Origin: a virus
Lineage: Duplodnaviria; Heunggongvirae; Uroviricota; Caudoviricetes
Length of the DNA: 40,062 bases
Strand: one strand, 5' to 3'
Virus record (IMG/VR): IMGVR_UViG_2671180458_000005
Both the position numbers and the translations under genes were made by a program. Below, piece after piece: positions 25,993 through 40,062 of the stretch. How positions within the stretch are numbered: the first letter of the stretch is position 1; every line of letters begins with the position of its first letter. Below the pieces are notes generated by a model. It saw nothing but the letters and a program-made list of their open reading frames with translations, was not told where the DNA came from and made no database searches.

Positions 25993-26241
25993 ATTGTGGC
26001 GGGGCTGTCACTTAATCGTATGGTCAACCTGACAACCCGGTGCATTTTCTGGAGCAATGGAGGAAACCCCAGCCATACTTACCGCCGCGCCATTTCGCGG
26101 ATTGCCACAACCGGAAGCGCACGTTCGAAGAAATCTAACGACAAGCCTTCTAAGGGAAAGAGCTTCGCCGTGCGCTTTCGTGTTATACCCTGACTTTTCA
26201 GGGTAAATTAACCAGTGGCAACCTGTTTTTACTGGTGCTAA

Positions 26242-26394: not shown

Positions 26395-26577
26395 GTTGAC
26401 CTCATTTACCCTTAACGCCGGGTCGCGGAACTAAAAACCTGCTGCGCTGTTATACAAAGTGTTCCCGCCGTCATGTTCATACGCCTCGGGCTGGCTACTT
26501 AACCCCTTGCCACTGCCGGGTAACTCGAAGTATTGCCTGGCGTTCTGTGGGGCGGAGTGGGTTGGTGAGTGCAATCT

Positions 26578-26616
26578 ACAATTAAAAACTGTTTTGTGTC
26601 AACAGTTTTTAATTGT
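26578..26616. promoter_or_regulatory. Operator palindrome (OL-like) containing a leftward promoter
   Basis: ACAATTAAAAACTGTT-TTGTGTC-AACAGTTTTTAATTGT; on minus strand a perfect TTGACA -35 sits in the centre with TAGATT about 18 nt downstream; near-identical palindrome at 27612..27650. Confidence 0.65.
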
Positions 26617-26625
26617 GCATTTAAG

Positions 26626-26649
26626 CAAAAAAATCCCTCGAAAGAGGGA
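26626..26649 (-). terminator. Rho-independent terminator after parE-like gene (minus strand)
   Basis: Minus strand TCCCTC-TTTC-GAGGGA followed by TTTTTTT. Confidence 0.65.
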
Positions 26650-26667
26650 GTATGAAAATAGTTCAGC

Positions 26668-26955
26668 TCAGATAGAGAAGGGAAATTGTCGGCGAGCATG
26701 TGTCACGCTTACAATCTCAATGCTTGAAGCAGCTACTCTGTACAGGATTATGTAGTTAGGGTGGGTCACTATCTCTCTCAACCCAGAAACCCGTTCGCTT
26801 GGTGGATATAGGTACGGATGCTCAGATAGAGGTAATACCGATGTTTCAATACGTATTTTAAGTCTACGCGCTGCCGGTGGGTTCTCCTTGGCGATGTAAG
26901 TTATGATCTGACGCAAATCATCGCGAGCAGATGGTAGCCATAAAATGGGCAACAT
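26668..26955 (-). CDS. ParE/RelE-family type II toxin
   Basis: 95 aa; start codon overlaps antitoxin stop by 1 nt; sequence pattern typical of ParE toxins (recalled). Confidence 0.7.
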   Translation of the reverse strand: MLPILWLPSARDDLRQIITYIAKENPPAARRLKIRIETSVLPLSEHPYLYPPSERVSGLREIVTHPNYIILYRVAASSIEIVSVTHARRQFPFSI

Positions 26956-27146
26956 TACTCGCTCCTGTTAGTTACAGCAATTTGAGCAATAAGATTTTCC
27001 ATTTCAGCTATTACCTCGTCATGTGGAATTGCAGGGCGAGGGTCTGCAAGGCTTGACGCTACTTTAGCGCGCAACCATTCGTTGTAACTGTTTTCTTGTT
27101 CGATAGTTTCGAATTCTGAAACTATCGGAGAAAGGGCTGTACTCAT
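26955..27146 (-). CDS. Small antitoxin, PaaA2-like
   Basis: 63 aa MSTALSPIVSEFETIEQENSYNEWLRAKVASSLADPRPAIPHDEV...; size and sequence resemble PaaA2 of the E. coli O157 paaR2-paaA2-parE2 module as recalled; translationally coupled to toxin. Confidence 0.6.
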   Translation of the reverse strand: MSTALSPIVSEFETIEQENSYNEWLRAKVASSLADPRPAIPHDEVIAEMENLIAQIAVTNRSE

Positions 27147-27173
27147 GGCATAACTCCTCTTCTTGTACTGTGG

Positions 27174-27575
27174 TCACGCCCGGCGGCTTTTTTGTGCCGC
27201 CAGCCACCGGGCAATGGTTTCTTCCATTGATTTTTTTTTGTCTTTGATTTCTTGAAGCATTTTTTCTTGGTCCTCCTCAGGGAACGCACTAAAAGCCTGG
27301 AGTAATTCGCGTTGGCGAGGACCAATTTTCATCGTGTTAGGGGTGAACATTTGCTCCCCCTCTTCAGGAGGCAATAAAAACCAATGCAACGGATGCCCTG
27401 TAACCTCAACCAGTTTATCCAAACTTGAGGCTTTAGGTGTAGCCTTACCGCTGACCCATTGTTGAACAGTTTGTTGTGTCACACCAATTCTACGGGCCAG
27501 CTCAGCCTGGCTCCATCCAGTTTCCTGAAGAAGCTTGCTGATTCTGTACATCGATACTTCTAGGGCGCTCATCAT
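27174..27575 (-). CDS. XRE-family HTH repressor (prophage repressor / PaaR-like regulator)
   Basis: HTH segment WSQAELARRIGVTQQTVQQWVSGK; divergent from cro-like gene across an operator palindrome; no LexA-type autocleavage motifs seen; start (MMSALE or MYRIS) uncertain, no SD. Confidence 0.7.
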   Translation of the reverse strand: MMSALEVSMYRISKLLQETGWSQAELARRIGVTQQTVQQWVSGKATPKASSLDKLVEVTGHPLHWFLLPPEEGEQMFTPNTMKIGPRQRELLQAFSAFPEEDQEKMLQEIKDKKKSMEETIARWLAAQKSRRA

Positions 27576-27611
27576 TATTCAATTTTACAGGTAAATACTG
27601 TTAAAAGCATC

Positions 27612-27650
27612 ACAATAAAAAACTGTTGATCGCGTACAGTTTTTTATTGT
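27612..27650. promoter_or_regulatory. Operator palindrome (OR-like) between divergent repressor and cro-like genes
   Basis: ACAATAAAAAACTGT-TGATCGCGT-ACAGTTTTTTATTGT, perfect 15-bp inverted repeat arms. Confidence 0.7.
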
Positions 27651-27683
27651 AGCCTTTGCCTATAGTTTTTAGAGGAGGGCAAA

Positions 27684-27956
27684 ATGCTAGATAGCACTCG
27701 CAAAAAAATTAGGCAGAAATACACTCAGGCTGAAATAGGTCGTTATATGGGGGGCGCTCAACAGACAGTTTGGCAATGGTTTAGCTTTGGCGTTCCCCCA
27801 AAGCAGGTAATTCCGCTATGTCAGCTAATGAAGTGGGAGGTTACCCCGCATGAAATTCGCCCAGACATTTACCCTAATCCGACCGACGGCTTACCTGTCG
27901 AGTATCAGGCTAACACACAACCAGAGGCGGGGGTGATTCATGAAAATCAAGCATGA
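27684..27956 (+). CDS. Cro-like HTH protein, YdaS family
   Basis: 90 aa; GAGGAGGG RBS; HTH with QQTVWQWF; RPDI motif as in Rac YdaS (recalled). Confidence 0.6.
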   Translation: MLDSTRKKIRQKYTQAEIGRYMGGAQQTVWQWFSFGVPPKQVIPLCQLMKWEVTPHEIRPDIYPNPTDGLPVEYQANTQPEAGVIHENQA

Positions 27957-28365
27957 ACACATCCGCATGGCAATGAATGCCTGGGCGTATCCAGACGGTG
28001 AGAAAGTTCCAGCAGCTGAAATAGCCCGGACTTATTTCGAGCTGGGGATGACGTTCCCGGAACTGTACGACGACAGCCATCCGGAAGCCCTGGCTCGTAA
28101 TACCCAGAAAATTTTCCGCTGGGTGGAGAAGGACACGTCTGATGCTGTTGAAAAAATTCAGGCGCTGTTACCGGCGATCGAAAAGGCGATGCCGCCTTTG
28201 CTGGTGGCCCGTATGCGCAGTCACAGTTCTGAATATTACCGGGAGATCGTCGAACGACGGGATCGGCTGGTGAAAGATGTGGATGATTTTGTCGCTGTAG
28301 CGATCGCCTGGGGCACCCTGACTAACAGTGGTGGTCAGCCTGGTAATGCAGTTGTTGTGCATTGA
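27940..28365 (+). CDS. YdaT-family protein
   Basis: 141 aa beginning MKIKHEHI and ending ...VVVH, resembling Rac YdaT termini as recalled; overlaps ydaS-like gene. Confidence 0.6.
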   Translation: MKIKHEHIRMAMNAWAYPDGEKVPAAEIARTYFELGMTFPELYDDSHPEALARNTQKIFRWVEKDTSDAVEKIQALLPAIEKAMPPLLVARMRSHSSEYYREIVERRDRLVKDVDDFVAVAIAWGTLTNSGGQPGNAVVVH

Positions 28366-28433
28366 CCAACAATATTTATACCGGATTTCTTCCGGAAGTT
28401 CGTGGGTAAAGTTCGGTATCAGAAGAGGTGAGT

Positions 28434-29471
28434 ATGGCTAATGCCTGGCTCAGATTGTGGCATGACATGCCAAATGACCCCAAGTGGCGAACGATTGCCA
28501 GGGTATCAGGACAGCCAATCGCAACAGTGATGGCAGTGTATATCCATCTTCTGGTGAGCGCGTCACGAAATGTCACGACATGTCACGGCGTGTCACTACG
28601 TGGTCACATTGATGTCACGACGGAAGATTTAGCAAGTGCGCTTGATGTGACGGAAGACGTAATTGATTCAATTTTGCATGCAATGCAGGGGCGGGTTCTG
28701 GATGGTGACCTTATTTCCGGATGGGAAAAACGTCAGGTGCTGAAAGAGGACAATGGTAACGTTTCGCAAACGGCAAAATCCCCGGCAGAGCGCAAGAGAG
28801 CGCAGCGGGAGCGCGAAAAGCTGCGGAAATATGATGCTGATTGTCACGATGAGTCACGACGTGTCACGCATCTGTCACGACAAGTCACGACAGATAAAGA
28901 TACAGATACAGAATTAAACCCCACACATAACGCGCGCATGCGCGAGAGTGCTCCAACCGGTGAGTCGAATGGTGCGTCGTTGCAGACAGCCGAACCTGAA
29001 TTCCTGGACGGCCTGAGCGAACCGATCGGGAAATTTTCGATGACCACTGTCTGGCAGCCGTCGCCGGATTTTCGACAACGGGCAGCAGTGTGGGGTATGG
29101 CTCTGCCTGAGCCGGAATTTACACCTGCTGAGCTTGCCGCATTCCGGGATTACTGGATGGCGGAGGGGAAGGTTTTCACGCAGGTTCAGTGGGAGCAGAA
29201 ATTTGCCCGCCACGTGCAGCACGTCAGGGCACAGGTAAAACCAGTCAGCAAGGGGGTAAGCCATGCAGCATCAGGTGGCACGGCATCACGGGCAGTTCAG
29301 AAAATCCGGGCAGCACGAGAACAGTGGGAACGTGAAAACGGATTTATCAGCAACGGAAACGGCCTGGAAGCTGTGGGAACTTATGGGGGAGGTGTATTCG
29401 AACCGATGGACCCAGAAGAACGGGGCTGCGCCGTCGAAACTCTGGATTGCTCAGATTGGCGCGATGACTGA
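28434..29471 (+). CDS. Replication initiation protein (lambda O functional analogue, YdaU/DnaT-domain-like) containing origin iterons
   Basis: RBS GAGGTG then ATG 28434; two internal clusters of GTCAC(G) repeats at ~10-bp spacing; followed by P-like gene. Confidence 0.65.
   Translation: MANAWLRLWHDMPNDPKWRTIARVSGQPIATVMAVYIHLLVSASRNVTTCHGVSLRGHIDVTTEDLASALDVTEDVIDSILHAMQGRVLDGDLISGWEKRQVLKEDNGNVSQTAKSPAERKRAQREREKLRKYDADCHDESRRVTHLSRQVTTDKDTDTELNPTHNARMRESAPTGESNGASLQTAEPEFLDGLSEPIGKFSMTTVWQPSPDFRQRAAVWGMALPEPEFTPAELAAFRDYWMAEGKVFTQVQWEQKFARHVQHVRAQVKPVSKGVSHAASGGTASRAVQKIRAAREQWERENGFISNGNGLEAVGTYGGGVFEPMDPEERGCAVETLDCSDWRDD
28562..28889 (+). repeat. Putative replication origin: 11 GTCAC(G) iterons in two clusters (28562..28619 and 28843..28889)
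   Basis: Six repeats at spacing 10,10,10,11,11 and five at 10,10,11,10, helically phased, inside the O-like ORF. Confidence 0.65.
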
Positions 29472-29925
29472 ACAGCAAATCCGGCAGGTCTGCCGTCAGT
29501 GCATGGACCGCTGCCGGGCGGGTGAAACGTGGCCCCCGGACCTGGCTGAGTTTGTTGCGCTGATTTCGGAGAGTGAGGCAAATCCATTTGGTCTTACGGT
29601 GGATGCCGTGATGGAAGAGTACCGGCGCTGGCGCAATGAATCCTGGCGATACGACGGGAGTGATAAATACCCGTGGCCACAGCCTGTGCTGTACCACATC
29701 TGCCTCGAAATGCGTACCAGAGGGATTGAGCGCCAGATGACGCAGGGTGAGTTAAAACGACTTGCGGAACGGCAACTGACGAAATGGGCAAAGCATGTTG
29801 GTAACGGGATGAGTATTCCGCCGATCCGGAGGCAACTCGCATCGCCGAAGCGCCCGCAAGGGCCAACGCCAATTGAATTACTGAAACAGGAATACGAGCG
29901 CCGGAAGGCGGCTGGTTTTGTTTGA
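29263..29925 (+). CDS. Replication protein P-like (helicase loader)
   Basis: C-terminal two-thirds align by eye with lambda P (recalled). Overlaps O-like ORF by about 200 nt in another frame, so the start is uncertain. Confidence 0.6.
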   Translation: MQHQVARHHGQFRKSGQHENSGNVKTDLSATETAWKLWELMGEVYSNRWTQKNGAAPSKLWIAQIGAMTEQQIRQVCRQCMDRCRAGETWPPDLAEFVALISESEANPFGLTVDAVMEEYRRWRNESWRYDGSDKYPWPQPVLYHICLEMRTRGIERQMTQGELKRLAERQLTKWAKHVGNGMSIPPIRRQLASPKRPQGPTPIELLKQEYERRKAAGFV

Positions 29926-29958
29926 ATTTGAGAAATGATTTTGTCGGAGGACGTTTTA

Positions 29959-30633
29959 ATGGAAACCGTTTTTGACGCACTGCAAGCAATGGGAAAAGCC
30001 ACATCCATAGAACTTGCTGCGCGACTTGGTATCAGTCGTGAAGAAGTGCTGAACGAGTTGTGGGAACTGAAAAGAAATGGCGTCGTTGATAAAACGGGTC
30101 ACACCTGGTTTCTGGCTGGTAAAGGTGAATCCGGGGTAACCGAAGAGCAGCCAGCACAATCTGAAGTACCGGATGTGCTGACCGGGGAGGTCGAACAAAA
30201 AGTTACCGCGGACATGATGATTGAGTTTATCTGTCAGGATGGGGCTAAAACGTGTGAGGAACTGGCGGATAAGTTCGGTGTTAGCATTCGCAAGGTTGCT
30301 TCCACGTTGGCGGTCGTAACAGCAACGGGGCGCCTGGCACGCGTAAATCAGAACGGTAAATTTCGTTACTGCATACCGGGCGCTGATTTACCGGCAGAGC
30401 CGGAAGCTGCATCCGTAGCGGAAACCGATGGTAAAGCCTTTCCTCAGCCAGCAGGTGTTGCGTTACCAGTTCGGGAAGCGGAAACACAGGAAGAAATAAA
30501 AACGGAAAGTGTGGCGGTCACAGTGCAGTCACAGCCGTCGTTCACCAGAAAGCATCCGGATGGTCTGATTTTACCATCGCTGCATGTGGCTAACCGCGAG
30601 CTGCGCCGGGCAAAAGGTCAGGTTCAGAAGTGA
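29959..30633 (+). CDS. Hypothetical protein with winged-helix-like segments (DUF1627-like)
   Basis: Start ATG 29959 behind GGAGG; family assignment from memory only. Confidence 0.45.
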
Positions 30634-31034
30634 GAGCGAGTCTGCGCCGCGCTACGGGAGCTGAACAAGTGCCGGGATATTCTCCGGGATATTACCGCCA
30701 CCAGAGAACAGCAGCGGTGAGTGGCTGGAAGACGTGGTGCCGGGCTGAAATCCTGATACTCCGCCAGTGTGTGGGAACTATGAAGGTGAAAAGCATTGGC
30801 GCACTTATCGGACGAACTGAAGCGGCAGTGAGAACGAAGGCACTGGAGCTGGGCATCAGTATGATGTTACGTGGTGATTTTCACCCGTCGGCAAAATATT
30901 CACAGCGTGATATTGAGCTGGCGCGGCAACTGCATCAGCGCGGTGTACCCCGACGGGAAATTGCCGAAAAGTTCGGAATGAAGTTGCGTGCAGTGAATAA
31001 CTACGTTTATTTCGACAGGAGGATTCAGGCGTGA
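30630..31034 (+). CDS. Hypothetical protein with C-terminal HTH-like segment
   Basis: GTG start overlapping previous stop; alternative start ATG 30780; C-terminal [18 protein letters not shown] looks HTH-like. Confidence 0.4.
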
Positions 31035-31336
31035 GGGTGAGAATTTATATCGCCGGTCCGATGACGGGATATGAAAATTTCAACCGCGAGGCGTTTCACA
31101 GGGCGGAAGAAGCGCTGAAACGGGAAGGGCATACCGTTTTAAACCCGGCAGTACTTCCGGACGGGCTGACTCAGCCACATTACATGGATATTTGCATGGC
31201 AATGATTCGTTGTGTGGATGCAATTTACATGCTGAAAGGCTGGCAGCGGTCGGCAGGCGCTAAGGCAGAACTGGCACTGGCAGAGAAACTGGGACATGCG
31301 GTGATTTTCCAGGAGGCAACCAGTGAGCGAAATTAA
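31031..31336 (+). CDS. Nucleoside 2-deoxyribosyltransferase-like protein (DUF4406-like)
   Basis: 101 aa; GTG start behind AGGAGG; N-terminal RIYIAGPMTG...F motif characteristic of the deoxyribosyltransferase-like fold. Confidence 0.6.
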   Translation: MRVRIYIAGPMTGYENFNREAFHRAEEALKREGHTVLNPAVLPDGLTQPHYMDICMAMIRCVDAIYMLKGWQRSAGAKAELALAEKLGHAVIFQEATSERN

Positions 31337-31483
31337 TTACCAGGAACTACGGCAGGTGAAAGAGAAAGCATAATCCAGAACTGAATAATTAAAATCAGCA
31401 CTGTAAATAAAATTTAATCCTTAACCGGAGGGATTTCTGCACCCTCAGAACATCAGGAGACCGCCCGGCAGGGCGGTAGTGAA

Positions 31484-31666
31484 ATGCGAAAGTTCAAAAT
31501 AATTATTGAAACGGGAATAGCCGGTGGAGATTTTGAGGATGTATTCGAAGTGGACGATGACGCAACACCTGATGAAATTCATGACGAAGCAAAAGAAATT
31601 TTCTTTAACTACTGCAATTACTCATATCACGAAATAAAAGACGAAGAGGAAGAACAAAATGGCTGA
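31484..31666 (+). CDS. Small highly acidic protein (hypothetical)
   Basis: 60 aa, about one third Asp/Glu; stop overlaps start of next small ORF (ATGGCTGA). Confidence 0.5.
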   Translation: MRKFKIIIETGIAGGDFEDVFEVDDDATPDEIHDEAKEIFFNYCNYSYHEIKDEEEEQNG

Positions 31667-31835
31667 TTTTGGTTCAACTAAATACAACGTCAGTTTTGAA
31701 GAATGGCATGAACTGTTAATGGACTATGCAGAGTTACGTGGTGGCAGTGCTGCTGATGCTGAAGCATGGCGTGATGATTATGAAGCAGGAAAAACTCCGG
31801 TCGAAGCATATTGTGATGAGTGGGGCGATGAATGA
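31659..31835 (+). CDS. Small acidic protein (hypothetical)
   Basis: 58 aa MADFGSTKYNVSFEEWHELLMDYAELRGGSAADAEAWRDDYEAGKTPVEAYCDEWGDE; overlaps both neighbours by 4-8 nt; not in ORF track. Confidence 0.5.
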   Translation: MADFGSTKYNVSFEEWHELLMDYAELRGGSAADAEAWRDDYEAGKTPVEAYCDEWGDE

Positions 31836-32347
31836 GCGAGATTAATTATCAGGAAGGGCATGAAACGGCAGGGCAGGCAAAACCAGTTGCATGGCGATAT
31901 CGCTACGTGAAAAAAGACGTTACAGACTTTCAGGGGAAGCCGTGGGCTGGTGACTGGAAATATGTACCGACAAAAGAGGATTGTAACGACAGGCCGAACT
32001 ATGAAATTCAGGCCTTATTCATCGGCCCGCCAGTCCCGGTGACATCAGAAGGACTGGTTAAAGCTGTGCGCTTTTATGAACAGGTAAAGCGTGAGAATCC
32101 GCCAGTCGAAACAGGAGCATGGAAGGATGCTGTTGACTGGGTGCTCAGAGAGGCCTGCTGTGCTGCCATTCTGGGTAAAGCCGACAATCCACCAGCATCC
32201 GGCAATCAGGTTAGCGAATTAGCAATGTGGGTTAAACGGCTGGTCAGCCAACTGAAAAAAGCGAAGCCGGACTGCAAATTACCGGATAAGGCGATGGACT
32301 ACCTGAAGCGAAACGGACTGATAAACGAGGAGGATATTTTACGATGA
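31832..32347 (+). CDS. Hypothetical protein
   Basis: 171 aa; ATGA overlap with upstream ORF; a truncated copy of its first codons lies at 31323..31372. Confidence 0.55.
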   Translation: MSEINYQEGHETAGQAKPVAWRYRYVKKDVTDFQGKPWAGDWKYVPTKEDCNDRPNYEIQALFIGPPVPVTSEGLVKAVRFYEQVKRENPPVETGAWKDAVDWVLREACCAAILGKADNPPASGNQVSELAMWVKRLVSQLKKAKPDCKLPDKAMDYLKRNGLINEEDILR

Positions 32348-32427
32348 CCTGGCCTGAAGCGTTCATAACGGTAGGAATTGCAATGGCGGTGGCGCTGGTG
32401 GTGTATTCGATTTGCCGCTGGGGATAA
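32344..32427 (+). CDS. Putative 27-aa hydrophobic membrane peptide
   Basis: MTWPEAFITVGIAMAVALVVYSICRWG; ATGA overlap with upstream gene; followed by hairpin. Confidence 0.3.
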   Translation: MTWPEAFITVGIAMAVALVVYSICRWG

Positions 32428-32439
32428 ATTGCCGAAAAA

Positions 32440-32476
32440 AGATCCCGCCACAAACATGAGCCGGGATCTTTGATTT
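32440..32476 (+). terminator. Possible intrinsic terminator
   Basis: AGATCCCG...CGGGATCT stem with 14-nt loop followed by T-rich tract. Confidence 0.4.
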
Positions 32477-32549
32477 ATATAGCCTACGAATCCGCAGTAA
32501 GAGAGGGGCAGACGGTTTATTCTAACACCGGAATGATGTGGGTAAAAGT

Positions 32550-32849
32550 TTATAAGAAATCGGTTTCATAACTTTGCCCACCATGATAGATACCGACAAT
32601 AAAGACTTTTCTGCCATCAACGGCAAAAGCAATAATCGTTCTGTGGCGGAAATGAGTTACCCGCATCCCCTGGCGAATATCATCGCGTTTATTGCCCCGA
32701 TGCGGGAATGTAGAAAACCCATCAAGATAATCAAGAAGCGCATTGGCATAATTGTCAGCAATGACGTTCCCTGCTTTCTCCGTTATATATCTGTGCAGGT
32801 TGATTATTTGTTGTTCGGCCTCAGGAGTAATGATGACTTCATATGTCAT
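32550..32849 (-). CDS. parE: ParE-family type II toxin
   Basis: 99 aa; immediately downstream of ParD-like gene on same strand. Confidence 0.7.
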   Translation of the reverse strand: MTYEVIITPEAEQQIINLHRYITEKAGNVIADNYANALLDYLDGFSTFPHRGNKRDDIRQGMRVTHFRHRTIIAFAVDGRKVFIVGIYHGGQSYETDFL

Positions 32850-32854
32850 GCAGA

Positions 32855-33112
32855 TTACTTCCCGGATCGAATCGCGGCGCGAACCTGTGAAATGGAGCGT
32901 CCGTTGTTTGGGTTTTCGCGGATAGAATCAAGAGAGGGGGCGGCTGAATGCGTTAACCACGCTTCGATTGCTTTATCGCGCTCATTCAGTGCGCGAAGCC
33001 CTTCACGAATGACCTCGCTTTCTGAAGCATAGGCACCGGAAGCCACACGGGCGCGCACCATGTCAGCCATCTCGTTAGTTAATGTAATGCTGAATTGTTG
33101 GGTTGTACGCAT
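32855..33112 (-). CDS. parD: ParD-family (RHH) antitoxin
   Basis: Start at ATG 33112 (MRTTQQFSITLTNEMADMVRARV...), GAGG upstream. Confidence 0.65.
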   Translation of the reverse strand: MRTTQQFSITLTNEMADMVRARVASGAYASESEVIREGLRALNERDKAIEAWLTHSAAPSLDSIRENPNNGRSISQVRAAIRSGK

Positions 33113-33247
33113 GGTAAACCTCACGGAGTAGGATAGAACACTATTCGATGATAGCACGCTGCCTGTTGACGACAACAGAAATCAGAGACAATATTGCCGC
33201 ACGCCAGCCTGAACAACTGGCACCTGCTGCGCCAGCAGAGACAACCG

Positions 33248-33526
33248 ATGGCGCAAGATACCAAATTACACAATTCGGATAACTCCGCCGCCCCTGCCAG
33301 CAGGCACGGGCGGCGTTCTCATGCATTCAAATCTGACTGGTTCCAGCATGACCCATGCACTGAAGAACAGGCCGAATGGCTGATCCAGTGCTACCGCAGA
33401 CGTGGTTACGAGTTTCAGAAAGATCTCAGCTTCGATCGTCGTCACTGGATAATCTCCGTCAGGCTCCCTTATTCCGAACGCCCACCGCGTCCGTCCCGCA
33501 CATTCCAGCAGCGTATCTGGAGGTAA
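33248..33526 (+). CDS. Hypothetical protein
   Basis: ORF ends 1 nt before the GTG start of the next gene; start uncertain (TTG 33194 or ATG 33248). Confidence 0.35.
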   Translation: MAQDTKLHNSDNSAAPASRHGRRSHAFKSDWFQHDPCTEEQAEWLIQCYRRRGYEFQKDLSFDRRHWIISVRLPYSERPPRPSRTFQQRIWR

Positions 33527-33527
33527 C

Positions 33528-34577
33528 GTGCGGGTATTACTTCGACCTGTTCTGGTACCGGAACTCGGGATGGTGCTCCTTAAGCCGGGCCGTGAATCAA
33601 TGTCAGCATTCCATAACGGCAGAATATTGGTGGAGCCGGAACCGAAAAACATGCGCGGTCTGCCGTCCGGAGTCGTTCCTGCCGTTCGCCAGCCGCTGGC
33701 AGAGGATAAAACATTACTGCCATTTTTCAGCGATGAGCGGGTTATTCGTGCAGCAGGTGGTGCAGGTGCACTGTCTGACTGGTTATTACGTCACGTGAAA
33801 TCCTGCCAGTGGCCACACGGCGATTATCATCACAGCGAAACCGTCATTCACCGTTACGGTACCGGCGCGATGGTGTTGTGCTGGCACTGTGACAACCAGC
33901 TGCGCGACCAGACATCAGAATCACTCGATCAACTTGCTCAGCAGAATCTGGCAGTCTGGATGATTGATGTTATACGTCACGCAATAAGCGGTACGCAGGA
34001 GAGGGAGTTATCGCTGGCCGAATTATCCTGGTGGGCGGCCTGCAATCAGGTGGTGGATGCACTACCTGAGGCAGTAGCGCGTCGTTCGCTGGGATTACCG
34101 GTGGAAAAAATCCGCTCCGTATACCGTGAGAGTGACATCGTACCGGGAGAACAGACAGCCATCAGCATACTGAAGCAGCGCACAAAAAATATTGCGCTGC
34201 CACTTCACGTCCACCAGCAACAAAATCCACCACAGAAAAAAACGGTTGTCAGTATCGCCGTTGATCCGGAGTCTCCTGAATCGTTTATGAAGCGGCCTAA
34301 ACATCGCCGTTGGGTTAATGAGAAATACACGCGCTGGGTAAAGACACAGCCGTGTGCGTGTTGTGGTAAGCCAGCTGACGATCCGCATCACCTGATTGGT
34401 CATGGTCAGGGGGGAATGGGAACAAAAGCCCACGATATTTTCACGCTACCGCTGTGTCGGGAGCATCATAACGAGCTTCATGCGGATCCGCTGGCGTTCG
34501 AAGAAAAGCATGGTTCTCAGGTTGATTTAATTTTTCGTTTTCTTGATCACGCCTTTGCAACCGGTGTGCTTGGGTAA
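33528..34577 (+). CDS. YdfU-like protein with C-terminal Cys/His HNH-like motif (DUF968-like)
   Basis: 349 aa; GTG start behind GGAGG; C-terminal CACCGKPADDPHHLIGHGQGG...LCREHHNELHADP. Confidence 0.55.
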   Translation: MRVLLRPVLVPELGMVLLKPGRESMSAFHNGRILVEPEPKNMRGLPSGVVPAVRQPLAEDKTLLPFFSDERVIRAAGGAGALSDWLLRHVKSCQWPHGDYHHSETVIHRYGTGAMVLCWHCDNQLRDQTSESLDQLAQQNLAVWMIDVIRHAISGTQERELSLAELSWWAACNQVVDALPEAVARRSLGLPVEKIRSVYRESDIVPGEQTAISILKQRTKNIALPLHVHQQQNPPQKKTVVSIAVDPESPESFMKRPKHRRWVNEKYTRWVKTQPCACCGKPADDPHHLIGHGQGGMGTKAHDIFTLPLCREHHNELHADPLAFEEKHGSQVDLIFRFLDHAFATGVLG

Positions 34578-34590
34578 AAGGGGGGTATTG

Positions 34591-34965
34591 ATGTGTATAG
34601 AGTTTGTTTTGCCTTACCCGCCGACGGTGAATACTTACTGGCGACGTCGTGGCAGCACATATTTTGTATCAAAAGCCGGGGAGCGTTATCGCCGGGCAGT
34701 GGCGTTTATTGTTCGCCAGCAGCGACTGAAATTAAGCCTGTCCGGACGGCTGGCAATAAAAATTATTGCAGAGCCACCGGATAAGCGTCGTCGTGACCTG
34801 GACAACATTCTGAAAGCACCGCTGGATGCGCTGACGCATGCGGGACTGCTTATCGACGATGAACAGTTTGATGAAATCAATATTGTACGTGGTCAGCCAG
34901 TATCTGGTGGACGTCTGGGGGTGAAGATTTACCCCATAATGCTTGAAGGGCAGGTCAAAAAATGA
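34591..34965 (+). CDS. rusA: Holliday junction resolvase RusA
   Basis: LPYPPTVNTYWRRRG and DKRRRDLDNILKAPLDALTHAGLLIDDEQ motifs; start ATG 34591 behind AAAAGGGGGG. Confidence 0.8.
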   Translation: MCIEFVLPYPPTVNTYWRRRGSTYFVSKAGERYRRAVAFIVRQQRLKLSLSGRLAIKIIAEPPDKRRRDLDNILKAPLDALTHAGLLIDDEQFDEINIVRGQPVSGGRLGVKIYPIMLEGQVKK

Positions 34966-35783
34966 AACTGGAAGATTTACCGAAATACTACTCCCCAAAA
35001 TCCCCCGGCCTGACTGATGCATCGGCCTCAACGTCAAAAGATGCGCTGAGTATCACTGATGTGATGGCCGCGCAGGGCATGACACAGAATCGGGCTGAGA
35101 TGGGGTTTTCTGCGTTCCTTGGGAAAATGGGCATTAGTATGAATGACAGAGAGCGGGCAACAGAATTGCTGACAGAATATGCACTCAGTCGGTGTGATCG
35201 CGTGGCGGCGTTAAGAAAACTCCCGGCAGAAATAAAACCGGCAGTGATGCGTATTATGGCTTCGTATGCGTTTGAAGATTATGCCCGTAGCGCGGCGAGC
35301 AAAAAACAGTGCCCCTGCTGTCACGGAAAAAAATTTATTGAAAGCGAGGTTTTTACAAACAAGATCCAGTATCCGGATGGTAAGCCGCCAGTGTGGGCAA
35401 AGTGCACAAAAGGCGTGTATCCGTCTTACTGGGAGGAATGGAAAAAAGTCAGGGAGGTGGTAAAAGTTGCCTGTCCGGAGTGTGGCGGAAAGGGGGAGGT
35501 TTCCACCGCCTGTAAAGATTGTCGTGGGCGCGGTGTTGCCATTCATCGTGAAGAGTCGGAAAAACAGGGTGTGCCGGTTTTCAGAAACTGCCAGCGTTGT
35601 GGTGGGCGTGGCTATGAAAGATTACCTTCAACGGAGGCATTTAATGCCATATGTAATGTAACCGATGCCATATCTCTTGATACATGGAAAAAAACAGTTA
35701 AACGTTTTTACGATACGCTGGTGGTGCAGTTTGATATTGAAGAAGCATGGGCAGAACAACAACTGAAAAAGGTGACCAGATAG
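34962..35783 (+). CDS. Late-gene antitermination protein Q (multi-zinc-finger type)
   Basis: 273 aa with several CxxC pairs; ATGA overlap with rusA; followed by late promoter-like region and terminator. Confidence 0.65.
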   Translation: MKLEDLPKYYSPKSPGLTDASASTSKDALSITDVMAAQGMTQNRAEMGFSAFLGKMGISMNDRERATELLTEYALSRCDRVAALRKLPAEIKPAVMRIMASYAFEDYARSAASKKQCPCCHGKKFIESEVFTNKIQYPDGKPPVWAKCTKGVYPSYWEEWKKVREVVKVACPECGGKGEVSTACKDCRGRGVAIHREESEKQGVPVFRNCQRCGGRGYERLPSTEAFNAICNVTDAISLDTWKKTVKRFYDTLVVQFDIEEAWAEQQLKKVTR

Positions 35784-35863
35784 CTTTGTTGATTTTTCCC
35801 GAATCTGTGGTAAATTTGCCCTAACGATGGGCGTTTTATGCCTGACGTTAGAAGATTTTTACA

Positions 35864-35886
35864 CCCGTCGCCAGGCGGGTTTTTTT
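35864..35886 (+). terminator. Rho-independent terminator downstream of Q (tR-prime analogue)
   Basis: CCCGTC-GCCA-GGCGGG followed by TTTTTTT about 80 nt after Q stop. Confidence 0.6.
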
Positions 35887-36008
35887 ATGACTGAAATCAC
35901 GCCAGTACAGTAAACGCGCTGGTGGCGGTGAATACCGGTCTTTCAGCTTGCTGGCTTTTTTGACAAGAGTTATTGGTGTGTCACGTTAACCGGAAAAGGG
36001 AAAAAGAC

Positions 36009-36206
36009 ATGCTGATACAGCAGGATATGACCGAAACCGCCAGAGTGGTGTTTAATGAATTAAGCGTCACCGAACCGGCGACAGTCGGGGAGATTGCGCA
36101 GAATACTTACCTTTCACGCGAACGCTGCCAGTTAATACTGACCCAGCTTGTTATGGCGGGTCTGGCAGACTATCAGTTCGGTTGTTACAGACGCCTTCAG
36201 TCATGA
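36009..36206 (+). CDS. Small winged-helix DNA-binding protein (hypothetical)
   Basis: 65 aa from ATG 36009; segment VGEIAQNTYLSRERCQLILTQLVMAGLADY looks wHTH-like. Confidence 0.4.
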   Translation: MLIQQDMTETARVVFNELSVTEPATVGEIAQNTYLSRERCQLILTQLVMAGLADYQFGCYRRLQS

Positions 36207-36356
36207 AGGCTTTTTTATTTGTGGTAAATGGGCGGCTGGTGGGTGTTAGGGGCACTCACCAGCCATCTGCTCATGCGTCTGGATCACAAGCAAACCTCAG
36301 GCCCACTGCTTTGCGCAAAAGCAGAATGAGCCTATCAGAGACAGGCTTAATGATCC

Positions 36357-37415
36357 ATGCTTAACACTGTAAAAATATCCAGTTGTGAGTTAATCAACGC
36401 CGACTGCCTGGAATTTATCCGGTCGTTACCCGAAAATTCTGTTGACCTGATAGTCACGGATCCGCCGTACTTTAAAGTGAAGCCTGAGGGCTGGGATAAC
36501 CAGTGGAAGGGCGACGATGATTACCTGAAGTGGCTGGACCAGTGTCTGGCGCAGTTCTGGCGGGTGCTGAAACCTGCCGGAAGTCTTTACCTGTTCTGTG
36601 GCCATCGCCTGGCATCTGATATCGAAATCATGATGCGTGAACGCTTCAGTGTGCTGAACCATATTATCTGGGCAAAGCCGTCCGGACGCTGGAACGGGTG
36701 CAACAAGGAAAGCCTGAGGGCGTATTTCCCCGCCACAGAGCGCATTCTGTTCGCGGAACATTATCAGGGGCCGTATCGTCCGAAAGATGCCGGGTATGAG
36801 GCGAAGGGCAGGGCACTGAAACAGCATGTGATGGCTCCGCTGATTGCTTACTTTCGTGATGCGCGTGCTGCCCTGGGGATAACGGCAAAACAGATAGTGG
36901 ATGCCACAGGAAAGAAAAACATGGTGTCGCACTGGTTCAGTGCCAGTCAGTGGCAACTGCCGAACGAAAGTGATTATCTGAAATTACAGGCGCTGTTTGC
37001 CCGGGTGGCAGAAGAGAAGCATCAGCGGGGTGAACTGGAGAAGCCCCACCACCAGCTGCTGGAGACGTATACTTCACTGAACCGGCAGTATGCGGAACTG
37101 CAGAGTGAATATAAGCATCTGCGGCGGTATTTTGGCGTGACGGCGCAGGTGCCGTACACCGATGTGTGGACGCATAAACCGGTGCAGTACTATCCCGGGA
37201 AACATCCGTGCGAAAAACCGGCAGAAATGCTGCAGCAGATAATCAGCGCGAGCAGTCGTCCGGGGGACCTGGTTGCAGATTTTTTCATGGGGTCGGGTTC
37301 GACAGTCAAAGCCGCGATGGCACTGGGGCGTCGTGCAACTGGTGTTGAGCTGGAGACTGAACGTTTTGAGCAGACGGTCAGGGAAGTTCAGGATTTAGCC
37401 AGTCAGAACGGATGA
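36357..37415 (+). CDS. DNA methyltransferase (N6-adenine/N4-cytosine type, no cognate endonuclease seen)
   Basis: 352 aa; motif IV LIVTDPPY near N-terminus and motif I FMGSGST near C-terminus. Confidence 0.85.
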   Translation: MLNTVKISSCELINADCLEFIRSLPENSVDLIVTDPPYFKVKPEGWDNQWKGDDDYLKWLDQCLAQFWRVLKPAGSLYLFCGHRLASDIEIMMRERFSVLNHIIWAKPSGRWNGCNKESLRAYFPATERILFAEHYQGPYRPKDAGYEAKGRALKQHVMAPLIAYFRDARAALGITAKQIVDATGKKNMVSHWFSASQWQLPNESDYLKLQALFARVAEEKHQRGELEKPHHQLLETYTSLNRQYAELQSEYKHLRRYFGVTAQVPYTDVWTHKPVQYYPGKHPCEKPAEMLQQIISASSRPGDLVADFFMGSGSTVKAAMALGRRATGVELETERFEQTVREVQDLASQNG

Positions 37416-37455
37416 TATTGCAGGATTAGTTACGTACCGTTATTATCCTGCACTC

Positions 37456-37531
37456 GGCCCTTTAGCTCAGTGGTGAGAGCGAGCGACTCATAATCGCCAG
37501 GTCGCTGGTTCAAATCCAGCAAGGGCCACCA
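37456..37531 (+). tRNA. tRNA with CAU anticodon (Ile2-lysidine type or Met), ileZ-like
   Basis: 76 nt; acceptor GGCCCTT/AAGGGCC; anticodon loop CTCATAA; T-loop GGTTCAAATCC; ends CCA. Confidence 0.8.
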
Positions 37532-37540
37532 TATCACATA

Positions 37541-37617
37541 CCGCCATTAGCTCATCGGGATAGAGCGTCAGCCTTCGAAGCTGGTTGCGCGGGGTTCGAG
37601 TCCTCGATGGCGGTCCA
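37541..37617 (+). tRNA. tRNA-Arg (anticodon UCG), argN-like
   Basis: 77 nt; acceptor CCGCCAT/ATGGCGG; anticodon loop CTTCGAA; GGTTCGAGTCC T-arm; ends CCA. Confidence 0.7.
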
Positions 37618-37630
37618 TTATCGGTATTCA

Positions 37631-37707
37631 GCGTTGTTAGCTCAGCCGGACAGAGCAATTGCCTTCTAAGCAATCGGTCACTGGTTCGAATCCAGTACAA
37701 CGCGCCA
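37631..37707 (+). tRNA. tRNA-Arg (anticodon UCU), argO-like
   Basis: 77 nt; acceptor GCGTTGT/ACAACGC; anticodon loop CTTCTAA; GGTTCGAATCC T-arm; ends CCA. Confidence 0.8.
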
Positions 37708-37721
37708 TATTTATTTACCAG

Positions 37722-37746
37722 GCTCGCTTTTGCGGGCCTTTTTTGT
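37722..37746 (+). terminator. Possible terminator after tRNA cluster
   Basis: GGCTCGC-TTTT-GCGGGCC imperfect hairpin followed by TTTTTT. Confidence 0.45.
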
Positions 37747-37876
37747 ATCCGCGCCACGCCCGGCGCATATCAACCACAGAGCCTTTCGGGGGTGAGCTTA
37801 CGGAGTGGTCAGTGTGACTTTCTCTGTGGGCAGATCGCTCCCGGGCGTTGGCTCACCCACCTAAAGGAACGTCACG

Positions 37877-38308
37877 ATGTTTGGTATTTTCAAAAAGAAA
37901 ACCCGCAGAGCAGCAGCGGAAATTAAAAAGTTTGAGAAACGTGATCTGGCACAGGCGGTTATTAATGCTGCCTACCTGGTAGCCTATGCAGATGGTGAAT
38001 GTGAGGCTTCAGAGAAAGCGAAGATCGAGCAGGTCTTGCGTAACCAGCCAGCGTTGTCCGCGTTTACGTCAGAAATTAATGCTATCAGTGCCACGATCAC
38101 AGGTCAGCTTGACACCAACTTTAAAATTGGTCGTCGAGCGGCGTTGCGTGAAATTGAAGATGTGAAACACGATACGCGTGAAGCGGAAGATGTGCTGGAT
38201 GTGGCGGTGGCCATTGCTGAAGCAGATGGTGAAATTGAGCCGGAAGAGCGTAAGGTTCTGGAAGAGATTGCTGGTGTTCTTGGCCTGCGACTGGAGAACC
38301 ACCTGTGA
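37877..38308 (+). CDS. TerB-like domain protein
   Basis: 143 aa; two AxADGE motifs (AYADGECEASEKAKI and AEADGEIEPEERKVLEEI) typical of TerB fold; AAAGGA RBS. Confidence 0.6.
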   Translation: MFGIFKKKTRRAAAEIKKFEKRDLAQAVINAAYLVAYADGECEASEKAKIEQVLRNQPALSAFTSEINAISATITGQLDTNFKIGRRAALREIEDVKHDTREAEDVLDVAVAIAEADGEIEPEERKVLEEIAGVLGLRLENHL

Positions 38309-38469
38309 CGGTAAAACTGCGTCTGGCCGCTGTGGCACTCCTGCTGTTTCTGGTGGTGATGGTGGATTTCACCAGCAGGATCATGTCGGTGCTGGCGGAT
38401 GGAGTGCTGGTGGTCGGTATTGTGGTGGTGCTTTTTCCTTTGGTGAAAAAGGACATGCCAGGTAGTTAG
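38305..38469 (+). CDS. Small hydrophobic membrane protein, translationally coupled to TerB-like gene
   Basis: 54 aa VTVKLRLAAVALLLFLVVMVDFTSRIMSVLADGVLVVGIVVVLFPLVKKDMPGS; GTGA overlap; not in ORF track. Confidence 0.45.
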   Translation: MTVKLRLAAVALLLFLVVMVDFTSRIMSVLADGVLVVGIVVVLFPLVKKDMPGS

Positions 38470-38717
38470 CCGGGTATCAGTCATGCCCCGAAAATTTTAA
38501 ATGTCTCACAATTCAGACGGTTGACAGTTGTCTGTTTTGCGGGGAGTTTGTTAAAAGAAACAGGCATGGTGAATCCCCCTGAGCGGAGGGGCGACTGGTG
38601 CATTAGGTGTTATCTTTGATACCCAGGAAAGTAAACGCGCGGGTTTGGTGGCACCGGGCTGAACTCACCGGGAGGCACCCGGCATCATGCGCATGATGAT
38701 ACAGATACGCGGCTTTA

Positions 38718-38741
38718 GCCCCTCTCCGGAGGGGCTTTTAT
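38718..38741 (+). terminator. Rho-independent terminator
   Basis: GCCCCTC-TCCG-GAGGGGC followed by TTTTATAT. Confidence 0.6.
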
Positions 38742-38770
38742 ATGAATTTTGTAAGATATGAGTAAACTAA

Positions 38771-39106
38771 TTATGGACACTGTTGTTTTAGTCCGTAAGG
38801 GCATATTTGCAGAATGCAATGATTATTAAAGCATTCTTTCAATACGTTATCTGAATTTGCAGGACATTCCTGGCTGTTTTTGATTAAATCCCAGAATCTT
38901 TTATTGAATGGTACAACGTTGTAAATGGTTACAGGTAGCACTTTGTTATTAAGTACGATACCTGTGTGAGTCAACGTAAATATACTTTCAGGAGGTAAGA
39001 AAACATCCGATTGATACCAGATTATTAATTTTATTTTACTCCATATGGCTGAAAAAGATATTCCGCATGATGGCTGGATAACTGTATCAATCACAATCCA
39101 CTTCAT
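38771..39106 (-). CDS. Hypothetical Cys-containing protein in low-GC island
   Basis: 111 aa; strong SD TAAGGAGG 7 nt upstream on minus strand; AT-rich surroundings. Confidence 0.55.
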
Positions 39107-39367
39107 TTAGCCTCCTTATTTATGCTGTGCTGGTGATGTTCTGAAAAGTATAAATGATAATTTTGAATGTAAACCATAGAGCAGAATTATTTTTCTGATG
39201 TTGTTTATTGTTTATTTAAATACAGGTTTTTATATCCCGTCTTGTAGTTTATCCATGCATACCTGCTTTATGATGAGGTTTTCATTTAAGGTATGGTTTT
39301 GTGTTTTTTTTTTCTGTATTTCATGTCAGGTATTTTAAAGAATTGTTTTTAATATGGTGGAAAGAAC

Positions 39368-40062
39368 CATGGCATTTAAACACTATGACGTGGTCAGGGC
39401 GGCGTCGCCGTCAGACCTTGCGGAGCGACTGACTCAAAAACTGAAGGAGGGGTGGCAGCCATTTGGCAGCCCTGTCGCCATCACGCCTTATACCCTGATG
39501 CAGGCCATTGCGGCGGAAGGTGATGTCACCACACCTGTGGTGGTGAAGCCGTCGGATGGAGAAGGCACAGTAATCAGCGCCACCAGTGACCCGGAGTATT
39601 ACTTTGTTGTGGTTCTGGCAGGGCAGTCAAACGGCATGTCGTATGGTGAAGGCCTTCCGCTGCCGGAGACATATGACCGTCCGGACCCGCGTATTAAGCA
39701 GCTGGCGCGCCGCAGTACGGTGACACCGGGCGGTGCCGCCTGTAAGTATAACGACATTATTCCGGCGGACCATTGTCTGCATGATGTGCAGGACATGAGC
39801 CGTCTTAACCATCCGAAAGCGGACCTGTCAAAGGGGCAGTACGGAACCGTGGGGCAGGGGCTGCATATCGCCAAAAAACTGCTGCCGTTTATACCGGCGA
39901 ATGCGGGTATTTTGCTGGTTCCGTGCTGCCGTGGTGCTTCGGCATTCACAACGGGTGCAGACGGCACATACAGCGAATCAGCCGGTGCATCGGAAAATTC
40001 ACTGCGCTGGGGTGTGGGTAAGCCGCTGTATCAGAATTTGGTGAGCCGGACTAAAGCCGCAC
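39368..40062 (+). CDS. NanS-p-like sialate O-acetylesterase (DUF1737 N-terminus), 5-prime part; continues beyond window
   Basis: N-terminus MAFKHYDVVRAASPSDLAERLTQKLKEGWQPFGSPV and following SGNH-like region (VVLAGQSNG) resemble Stx-phage nanS-p genes as recalled; no stop before window end. Confidence 0.65.

What the first reader, a model, noticed from the sequence alone, without database searches (positions are those of the whole stretch)
36009..37415. Small wHTH protein plus DNA methyltransferase with no cognate endonuclease, directly downstream of the late terminator
The methyltransferase (DPPY and FxGxG motifs) would be expressed with late genes and could protect progeny DNA from host restriction. 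The preceding 65-aa wHTH protein is in the position of a controller-like regulator. No endonuclease gene is nearby.
Basis: partly seen in the sequence, partly recalled or inferred. Interest (0 to 1): 0.4.

Follow-up and report, generated by a model that had tools for sequence, protein, structure and literature searches.

The report
Phage non-specific adenine methylase with RNA leader
The methyltransferase is a 95%-identical relative of the known non-specific adenine methylase M.EcoGII, sitting in a lambdoid prophage's late operon; what looks new is a strongly conserved, structured 130-base RNA leader directly in front of it, while the small winged-helix gene is a frequent but dispensable neighbour with its own control element.

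Summary
A 65-aa ORF (36009-36206) and a 352-aa beta-class N6-adenine methyltransferase (36357-37415; DPPY 36459-36470, FMGSG 37284-37298) lie downstream of a lambda-like PR'/tR'. No restriction endonuclease was recognised among the ORFs screened between 17.9 and 39.1 kb.

The methyltransferase is not anonymous. It is 95% identical to M.EcoGII, the characterised non-specific adenine methylase that is silent in lysogens and harmful when expressed constitutively. The module occurs in over 3,000 complete E. coli genomes.

The 'controller' reading is not supported:
- The small protein is a generic winged helix, not an Xre-type C protein.
- It has its own conserved bipartite upstream element and its own terminator.
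- It is absent from 23 of 82 species-level loci.

Unexpectedly, the spacer before the methyltransferase ATG (36226-36356) is a conserved structured RNA:
- It is 80% identical across relatives, where four-fold degenerate sites of the adjacent gene are 36% identical.
- 18 base pairs show compensatory changes.
- It has no Rfam match.
- It was followed by this methyltransferase in all 118 viral contigs that could be assessed.

It most likely gates translation of a toxic late enzyme. That mechanism is inferred, not shown.

The parts
34962..35783 (+). Q antiterminator gene (273 aa)
   Evidence: Pfam PF03589 Antiterm, E 5e-52; phrog_127
35789..35828 (+). Lambda-like late promoter PR' (TTGATT, 16 nt, TGgTAAATT) and sigma-dependent pause element AACGAT
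   Evidence: Read from the sequence and compared from memory with lambda PR'. It falls below the threshold of the promoter scan (8 of 12 matches).
35863..35887 (+). tR'-like intrinsic terminator; predicts a short late-promoter RNA of about 64 nt
   Evidence: Terminator scan: 7-bp stem, 5 GC pairs, T7 tail
35947..35981 (+). Conserved bipartite DNA element CTTGCTG-N11-13-(C)AGAGTTAYNTGTRTG upstream of the small ORF. The geometry is promoter- or operator-like. No RNA structure.
   Evidence: Present in 53 of 57 loci with the small ORF and in 0 of 23 without it. Conserved even where the protein is highly diverged (E 3e-6 to the family profile). RNAalifold finds no base pairs.
36009..36206 (+). 65-aa winged-helix protein (phrog_331, function unknown)
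36193..36216 (+). Second terminator-like hairpin, with the stop codon of the small ORF in its loop, followed by a T-run
   Evidence: Terminator scan. In the upstream sequences printed, a hairpin plus T-run precedes the leader, including in loci without the small ORF. This was read by eye and not scored.
36226..36356 (+). Structured RNA leader. P0 36229-33 pairs with 36301-05. P1 36234-45 pairs with 36253-64. P2 36268-71 pairs with 36289-92. P3 36306-12 pairs with 36318-24. P4 is roughly 36327-31 with 36345-49. GAUCA 36282-86 and UGAUC 36351-55 are a candidate long-range pair. No canonical SD.
   Evidence: no Rfam match
36357..37415 (+). Beta-class N6-adenine DNA methyltransferase of the M.EcoGI/GII family (352 aa)
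   Evidence: PF01555; 329 of 348 residues identical to M.EcoGII; PADLOC MTase_II, E 7e-164
37456..37707 (+). Three tRNA genes: CAT (annotated tRNA-Ile in RefSeq), Arg-TCG and Arg-TCT
   Evidence: ARAGORN, Rfam, RefSeq annotation
37720..37745 (+). Terminator-like hairpin after the tRNA genes

Best explanation
This is the M.EcoGI/GII-type methylase cassette of lambdoid prophages.

The 352-aa enzyme is a SAM-dependent beta-class N6-adenine methyltransferase. By 95% identity to M.EcoGII, it most likely methylates adenine in essentially any sequence context.

It lies in the PR' late transcription unit behind two intrinsic terminators (tR' and the hairpin at 36193-36216). It should therefore be silent in the lysogen and transcribed only when Q makes RNA polymerase terminator-resistant. 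Progeny DNA would then be heavily m6A-modified and protected from many adenine-sensitive restriction systems (inferred).

Because the enzyme is harmful to cells, a further layer of control sits directly on its mRNA. This is a conserved leader of about 130 nt, folded into a three-way junction (P0/P1/P2) plus two hairpins (P3, P4). It abuts an AUG that has no canonical Shine-Dalgarno sequence. I infer that it gates translation initiation. One way would be to hold the weak SD-like UGAUC (-6 to -2) and the -12 to -7 segment in structure.

The 65-aa winged-helix gene is a separate, moron-like unit: its own conserved upstream element, the gene, then a terminator. It usually travels with the cassette but is not needed for it. 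Its role is unknown and is probably accessory regulation or targeting.
For: Identity of the enzyme
- Pfam and motifs.
- 95% identity to the M.EcoGII sequence printed in PMC11551740, Suppl. Table S1.
- That is closer than another common E. coli variant, which is 90% identical.
- Phage 1720a-02, named by Murray et al. as carrying a very similar enzyme, matches this region at 97% nucleotide identity.

Published properties
- M.EcoGII is non-specific, unexpressed in the lysogen and deleterious when constitutive (PMC5778455).
- Reconstructed relatives remain non-site-specific (PMC11551740).

Late-operon position
- Q, PR', tR' and the second terminator.
- The same order follows three different Q families and precedes different downstream genes.

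Leader
- It is one of the best-conserved stretches of the four-genome alignment.
- Mean identity is 80%, against 36% at four-fold degenerate sites of the adjacent gene, across 52 relatives.
- 1-nt indels and variable uORFs exclude coding.
- On a MAFFT alignment, 88% of cells are paired against 27-44% when partners are slid. 18 pairs show double changes against 5-9. None of 500 shuffles reaches the observed value.
- Results are similar on the covariance-model alignment. For example, P2 pair 61:85 is CG30/AU9/UA8/UG6.
- Many G-U pairs fit the + strand RNA only.
- There is exactly one hit per locus, always ending at the methyltransferase start.
- 118 of 118 assessable viral contigs carrying a leader motif have the methyltransferase directly downstream.
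Against: - Non-specificity is inferred from 95% identity. About six of the differences fall in or next to the target-recognition region (residues 160-240), and no activity was measured.
- The M.EcoGII sequence used was machine-read from a PDF and contains a few reading errors.
- Homologues at 92-93% similarity gave no detectable methylation in O111 lysogens (PMC6602927). That fits silence but proves nothing about late activity.
- No data here show late transcription.
- The leader's function is not shown. Pseudoknot-free folding gives only slightly lower accessibility of -12 to +3 than shuffled leaders (0.39 vs 0.47).
- The GRUCA:UGAUC pairing is 95% possible but both sides are almost invariant, so it has no covariation support.
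- Distant clades (Xenorhabdus, Photorhabdus and the L209-L211 contigs) have a reduced leader or none, and L211 has a normal SD.
Confidence: 0.7

Rival explanations
1. First reader's model. The small protein is a C-protein-like controller of a (decayed) restriction-modification system, and it sets the timing or level of methyltransferase transcription.
For: Adjacent, same strand, upstream position. Nucleic-acid-binding fold. Adjacency is kept even when the protein has diverged strongly.
Against: - No HTH_3/Xre domain.
- No endonuclease recognised among the ORFs screened.
- A terminator lies between the two genes.
- The conserved upstream element is bipartite and non-palindromic, unlike C-boxes.
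- The gene is absent from 23 of 82 loci that keep the leader and methyltransferase.
- No shared operator motif links the two upstream regions (CAGAG test, p=0.44).
Confidence: 0.07
2. The small winged-helix protein is a partner subunit that changes the substrate choice of the methyltransferase, for example towards RNA or a subset of DNA. The precedent is PNB-2 with the MT-A70 enzyme M.EcoPA8orf6770P of Stx phage PA8.
For: There is a published precedent: a small upstream wHTH protein forms a 1:1 complex with a phage methyltransferase and directs it to 16S rRNA (PMC10810198). M.EcoGII can methylate RNA. Gene adjacency is conserved across Enterobacterales.
Against: - The PA8 enzyme belongs to a different family (DPPW, MT-A70).
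- M.EcoGII is fully active alone.
- The partner gene is dispensable in many lineages.
- The two genes are in separate units divided by a terminator.
Confidence: 0.13
3. Com/mom-like control. The small protein binds the leader RNA and opens the translation start of the methyltransferase, as Mu Com does for mom.
For: The logic is the same: a small nucleic-acid-binding protein sits just upstream of a toxic, late, broad adenine-modifying enzyme, and a structured RNA sits at a start codon without an SD. Mu com/mom is recalled from established literature and was not tested here.
Against: The full leader is kept in many loci without the small gene. The protein has no zinc finger. Winged helices mostly bind DNA. 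Clades with the small gene can have a reduced leader.
Confidence: 0.12
4. The conserved spacer acts as DNA (promoter, operator or recombination site) or as a separate small RNA, not as a cis-acting mRNA leader.
For: P3 is nearly palindromic, and TGTGAAAAT upstream of P0 resembles an extended -10 in some sequences.
Against: - Compensatory changes, with frequent G-U pairs that would be C-A on the other strand.
- The -10-like hexamer lacks the key A in about half of the sequences.
- A start there would remove the 5' strand of P0, which is 100% paired.
- The element always ends at the ATG.
Confidence: 0.08

Closest known systems
M.EcoGII / M.EcoGI (E. coli O104:H4 C227-11 prophage methyltransferases; Murray et al. 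2018, PMC5778455)
   Same: 95% identical protein. Same beta-class motif order, length and prophage setting. A relative named in that paper (phage 1720a-02) matches this locus at 97% nucleotide identity.
   Different: 352 vs 349 aa, with a different C-terminal tail. About 15 substitutions, several of them in the target-recognition region. Activity was not measured here. The upstream small gene and leader are not mentioned in the passages of that paper retrieved here.
Phage Mu com-mom operon (recalled from the literature, not tested)
   Same: A late, toxic, broad-specificity adenine-modifying enzyme. A small nucleic-acid-binding protein is encoded just upstream. An RNA structure sits at the enzyme's translation start.
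   Different: Mom is not a methyltransferase. Com is a zinc finger whose gene overlaps mom. Here a winged helix is separated from the enzyme by a terminator and 150 nt, and the leader persists without it.
Type II R-M controller (C) proteins
   Same: A small DNA-binding protein gene upstream of a modification gene.
   Different: C proteins are Xre-type HTH proteins, bind palindromic C-boxes and control an endonuclease. None of these three features is found here.
PNB-2 / M.EcoPA8orf6770P of Stx phage PA8 (Gong et al. 2023, PMC10810198)
   Same: A small wHTH protein encoded upstream of a phage adenine methyltransferase.
   Different: That enzyme is MT-A70 (DPPW), lies elsewhere in the phage genome, is co-transcribed with its partner and needs it for activity. 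M.EcoGII works alone.
Translational riboregulators and riboswitches that mask the ribosome-binding site
   Same: A conserved multi-helix leader ending at a start codon. Junction and loop nucleotides are highly conserved. It contains a sequence (GRUCAC) identical to part of the 16S rRNA 3' tail and complementary to UGAUC at -6 to -2.
   Different: No Rfam family matches even at E<=10. No ligand or factor is known. Masking is not shown.

Membership tests
M.EcoGI/GII family of beta-class N6-adenine methyltransferases | Motif IV (DPPY) N-terminal, central target-recognition domain, motif I (FxGxG) C-terminal; N6_N4_Mtase domain | tested here: met
   DPPY at residues 35-38 and FMGSG at 310-314. PF01555 scores 151 bits against a cut-off of 26.7.
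M.EcoGI/GII family of beta-class N6-adenine methyltransferases | Close full-length sequence identity to the characterised enzyme | tested here: met
   329 of 348 residues identical (95%) to the M.EcoGII sequence from PMC11551740 Table S1, which is machine-read and has a few reading errors.
M.EcoGI/GII family of beta-class N6-adenine methyltransferases | Methylates adenine in any sequence context | not testable with these tools
   Inferred from identity. Engineered relatives remain non-site-specific.
M.EcoGI/GII family of beta-class N6-adenine methyltransferases | Prophage-borne and silent in the lysogen | tested here: inconclusive
   The prophage late-operon position behind two terminators is shown. 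Expression was not measured.
Type II R-M system with controller (C) protein | Cognate restriction endonuclease gene next to the methyltransferase | tested here: not met
   None recognised among the ORFs screened between 17.9 and 39.1 kb, nor in related loci. Several ORFs had no Pfam match, and 1-17.9 kb was not scanned.
Type II R-M system with controller (C) protein | Xre-type HTH (HTH_3) protein that binds palindromic C-boxes upstream of its own gene | tested here: not met
   No HTH_3 hit, and the fold is a winged helix. The conserved upstream element is bipartite and not palindromic.
TrmB family transcriptional regulators (the name RefSeq gives to some homologues) | PF01978 domain above the gathering score; usually a larger protein with an effector domain | tested here: not met
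   17.7 bits against a cut-off of 25.6, in a protein of only 65 aa. A profile search finds only 84 small stand-alone relatives among 1.8 billion representatives.
Lambda-type late transcription unit | Q gene followed by PR' with a promoter-proximal pause element and the tR' terminator | tested here: met
   PF03589 Q. TTGATT, 16 nt, TGgTAAATT, AACGAT, then the hairpin plus T7. The promoter reading rests on comparison with lambda from memory.
Any described RNA family (Rfam 15) | Covariance-model match to the leader | tested here: not met
   Nothing in 36207-36356 at E<=1 over 2.3 kb. Only chance-level hits at E<=10 over 201 nt.
Mu Com-type translational activator | Small zinc-finger protein required for translation of the downstream modifying enzyme | tested here: not met
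   No zinc-finger pattern in the sequence, and the predicted fold is a winged helix. The gene is dispensable in 28% of loci. RNA binding was not testable.

The most novel reading that the evidence does not exclude
The roughly 130-nt element at 36226-36356 is an undescribed class of cis-regulatory RNA dedicated to M.EcoGII-family methyltransferases. A three-way-junction leader would keep translation of a toxic, non-specific adenine methylase off until a specific signal opens the start site. The signal could be a phage late factor, the enzyme itself, or a small molecule such as SAM or SAH. The opening may involve a 16S-rRNA-tail mimic (GRUCAC) that pairs with the SD-like UGAUC.
Probability: 0.45. 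Interest if true: 0.6.

Novelty: new member of a known kind. Interest (0 to 1): 0.45.

Why it matters
M.EcoGII is widely used as a tool enzyme for non-specific m6A labelling, but how phages control it in nature has not been described.

Three points follow from this analysis:
- The gene is part of a compact mobile cassette found in most E. coli genomes.
- It carries a dedicated structured leader, which gives a directly testable handle on how a phage times a genome-wide, host-toxic DNA modification.
- The common annotation of the neighbouring small gene as a 'TrmB family transcriptional regulator' has no firm basis.

If the leader is a signal-responsive riboregulator, it would add a new RNA class tied to anti-restriction.

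Tried and rejected
- A conserved leader peptide. The start codon inside AAAUGGGCG opens ORFs of only 3-43 aa, mostly MGGWWVL, with frames broken by 1-nt indels. Rejected.
- Known RNA families. There is no Rfam hit at permissive thresholds. The passages on methyltransferases and prophages in the 224-motif survey (PMC5737381) describe no such motif.
- A shared operator (CAGAG) in the small gene's upstream element and in the P4 loop. There is no association with presence of the small gene (28/20 vs 10/11, Fisher p=0.44). Rejected.
- RNA structure in the element upstream of the small ORF. RNAalifold finds no pairs. It is a DNA-level bipartite motif. I could not fit it convincingly to the sigma-70, sigma-54, sigma-E, CII, LexA, CRP or IHF consensus sequences (by eye).
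- Occlusion of the ribosome-binding site in pseudoknot-free folding. The effect is weak. Inconclusive.
- Equating this enzyme with the Stx-phage rRNA methyltransferase of Gong et al. That is a different family (DPPW, MT-A70).
- Equating the predicted short PR' RNA with the 66-nt HnrS sRNA. No sequence was available in the paper's text to test this.
- m6A-reader or Z-alpha-like roles for the winged helix. The fold matches are generic, with E>0.1.
- PADLOC. There are no defence-system hits beyond generic MTase_II models.

Full report
**What is there.** The window is a lambdoid E. coli prophage.
- Upstream of the finding lie a DUF968 protein, RusA and a 273-aa Q antiterminator (PF03589) that ends at 35783.
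- The next 100 bases read like lambda PR': TTGATT, 16 nt, TGgTAAATT, then the pause element AACGAT. A strong intrinsic terminator follows at 35863-35887.
- After that come a 65-aa ORF (36009-36206) and a second terminator-like hairpin whose loop holds that ORF's stop codon (36193-36216).
- A 150-nt spacer then leads to a 352-aa ORF (36357-37415), three tRNA genes and another terminator.
- RefSeq annotates an identical stretch in E. coli FHI_NMBU_10 as 'hypothetical protein' and 'DNA-methyltransferase', with nothing annotated between them.
- No restriction endonuclease was recognised among the larger ORFs screened between 17.9 and 39.1 kb. Several of those ORFs had no Pfam match, and the tail-gene region was not scanned.

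**The methyltransferase is a known enzyme type.**
- It is a beta-class N6_N4 methyltransferase.
- The region matches 296 phage records, mostly Stx2 phages, and 3,357 of 5,426 complete E. coli genomes.
- The paper on M.EcoGII describes a 349-aa prophage enzyme with exactly this architecture. It methylates adenine in any context, is not expressed in the lysogen and harms cells when expressed constitutively. The paper names phage 1720a-02 as carrying a very similar gene (PMC5778455). That phage matches this locus at 97% nucleotide identity.
- I took the M.EcoGII sequence from Supplementary Table S1 of PMC11551740. The window's protein is 329/348 identical to it. That is closer than another abundant E. 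coli variant, which is 90% identical.
- Reconstructed relatives of M.EcoGII remain non-site-specific.
- The enzyme is therefore best read as an M.EcoGI/GII orthologue. Non-specific adenine methylation is a strong inference, not a measurement.

**The small protein.**
- It is a real gene. dN/dS against relatives is 0.05-0.1 while synonymous sites are saturated.
- Its family is narrow. The word-indexed search found 286 proteins, all from Enterobacterales prophage contexts. A full profile search found only 84 representatives among 1.8 billion, nearly all of about 60-110 aa.
- The AF2 model (pLDDT 75) is a three-helix winged-helix domain. It matches MarR, ArsR, IclR, PefI and Z-alpha domains only at chance-level E-values.
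- The 'TrmB family' name some databases give it rests on a sub-threshold match.
- It is not an Xre-type C protein.

**Association of the small gene with the methyltransferase.**
- In 82 species-representative loci with enough upstream sequence, 59 have the gene directly upstream of the methyltransferase and 23 do not.
- In viral contigs it is present in 109 of 116.
- The pairing persists when the protein has diverged strongly (E 3e-6 to the family profile).
- It also persists behind three unrelated Q families.

**The small gene's own signals.**
- A bipartite motif, CTTGCTG-N11-13-CAGAGTTAYNTGTRTG, lies at 35947-35981 in the window.
- It is present in 53 of 57 loci with the gene and in none of 23 without it.
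- It has no RNA structure.
- A terminator follows the gene.
- This is the anatomy of an autonomous moron-like unit, not of the first gene of a shared operon.
- What the protein does remains open.

**The unexpected part: the spacer.**
- In a four-genome alignment (E. coli, Klebsiella, Salmonella, Buttiauxella), the 150 nt before the methyltransferase ATG were among the best-conserved stretches.
- Across 52 relatives the leader is on average 80% identical to the window. Four-fold degenerate sites of the adjacent gene are 36% identical, and the protein is 74% identical.
- One-base indels and uORFs of 3-43 aa rule out coding.
- A structure with a closing helix P0, a long hairpin P1, a short helix P2, and hairpins P3 and P4 is supported on a structure-blind MAFFT alignment of 39 sequences:
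  - 88% of cells are paired, against 27-44% with partners slid.
  - 18 pairs have changes on both sides, against 5-9.
  - None of 500 shuffles reaches the observed values.
- A covariance-model alignment of 54 sequences gives the same picture. That alignment leans towards the model.
- The clearest cases are P1 (9 of 12 pairs with compensatory changes) and P2 pair 61:85 (CG 30, AU 9, UA 8, UG 6).
- Frequent G-U pairs favour the sense-strand RNA.
- The model finds exactly one copy per locus, always ending at the methyltransferase start, and only one in this window.
- A leader motif searched in IMG/VR returned 120 contigs. 118 have the methyltransferase immediately downstream and the other two are cut by the contig end.
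- No Rfam family matches.

**How it probably works.**
Shown:
- The gene order.
- The terminators.
- The identity of the enzyme.
- The conserved RNA fold abutting a start codon that lacks a canonical SD.

Taken from the literature:
- Non-specific activity, silence in lysogens and toxicity.

Inferred:
- Q-dependent read-through transcribes the cassette late.
- The enzyme then hypermethylates replicating phage DNA, which protects it from adenine-sensitive restriction.
- The leader limits or times translation.

One concrete proposal for the leader is as follows:
- UGAUC at -6 to -2 is the 3' extension of the perfect SD (UAAGGAGGUGAUC), correctly spaced to serve as a weak SD.
- The P2 loop carries GRUCAC, which is identical to part of the 16S rRNA 3' tail and complementary to that UGAUC.
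- The 3' arm of P4 covers -12 to -7.
- The long-range pairing is possible in 95% of cells. Both sides are nearly invariant, so covariation cannot test it.
- Pseudoknot-free folding shows only a weak accessibility effect.
- I therefore hold the 'translational gate' at moderate confidence and the exact mechanism at low confidence.

**Role of the small protein: three live options.**
- An independent regulator expressed from its own element.
- A targeting partner, like PNB-2 of phage PA8, where a small wHTH protein redirects a different phage methyltransferase to 16S rRNA (PMC10810198).
- A Com-like activator acting on the leader.

The last two are weakened by three facts. Many lineages keep the leader and enzyme without the small gene. 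M.EcoGII is active alone. A terminator separates the two genes.

**Verdict.**
- The finding as written is largely ordinary. It is a new member of a known, characterised and very common phage methyltransferase family.
- The 'controller' idea is not supported.
- The value added is threefold:
  - the specific identification as an M.EcoGII orthologue;
  - the cassette anatomy;
  - a well-supported, apparently undescribed structured RNA leader that merits experimental follow-up.

Noticed in passing
window 35789-35887: The lambda-like PR' (with the AACGAT pause element) and tR' predict a constitutive short RNA of about 64 nt. It is analogous to lambda 6S RNA and StxS, and close in size to the 66-nt prophage sRNA HnrS. 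I could not check whether it is HnrS.
   Followed up: partly
window 35947-35981: A bipartite DNA motif, CTTGCTG-N11-13-CAGAGTTAYNTGTRTG, is conserved from E. coli to distant relatives (L211). It is strictly linked to the small winged-helix gene. The geometry is promoter-like, but the -10 candidate (TAYNTG) is poor.
   Followed up: partly
L211 3150-3270: In a distant clade the spacer is only 73 nt. A hairpin resembling P1 (AGCUGGUG...CAUCGGCU) is followed by a U-run and looks like the terminator. The methyltransferase there has a normal SD (AAGGA).
   Followed up: no
L017 and L021, about 200-440 nt upstream of the methyltransferase: Where the winged-helix gene is missing, two Kosakonia-type loci carry a 79-aa protein with CxxC...CxxC motifs (zinc-ribbon-like) instead. 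This recalls the zinc-finger Com of phage Mu.
   Followed up: no
window 37877-39106: After the tRNA genes, the position where Stx phages carry stx holds a TerB-family protein, a DUF3927 protein and, on the minus strand, an ORF that RefSeq marks as a frameshifted iraM.
   Followed up: partly
window 17906-19177: A 423-aa protein with a YadA-type membrane anchor follows the tail-fibre genes. This resembles prophage-encoded Eib immunoglobulin-binding proteins.
   Followed up: no
window 26668-26955 (-) and 32550-33175 (-): Two ParE/RelE-type toxin genes lie in the early and nin regions. The second has an annotated ParD antitoxin next to it.
   Followed up: no
window 1-20000 vs 20684-40062: Tail genes precede the integrase and early region. 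The window is therefore either a permuted phage record or spans the end of one prophage and the start of another.
   Followed up: no
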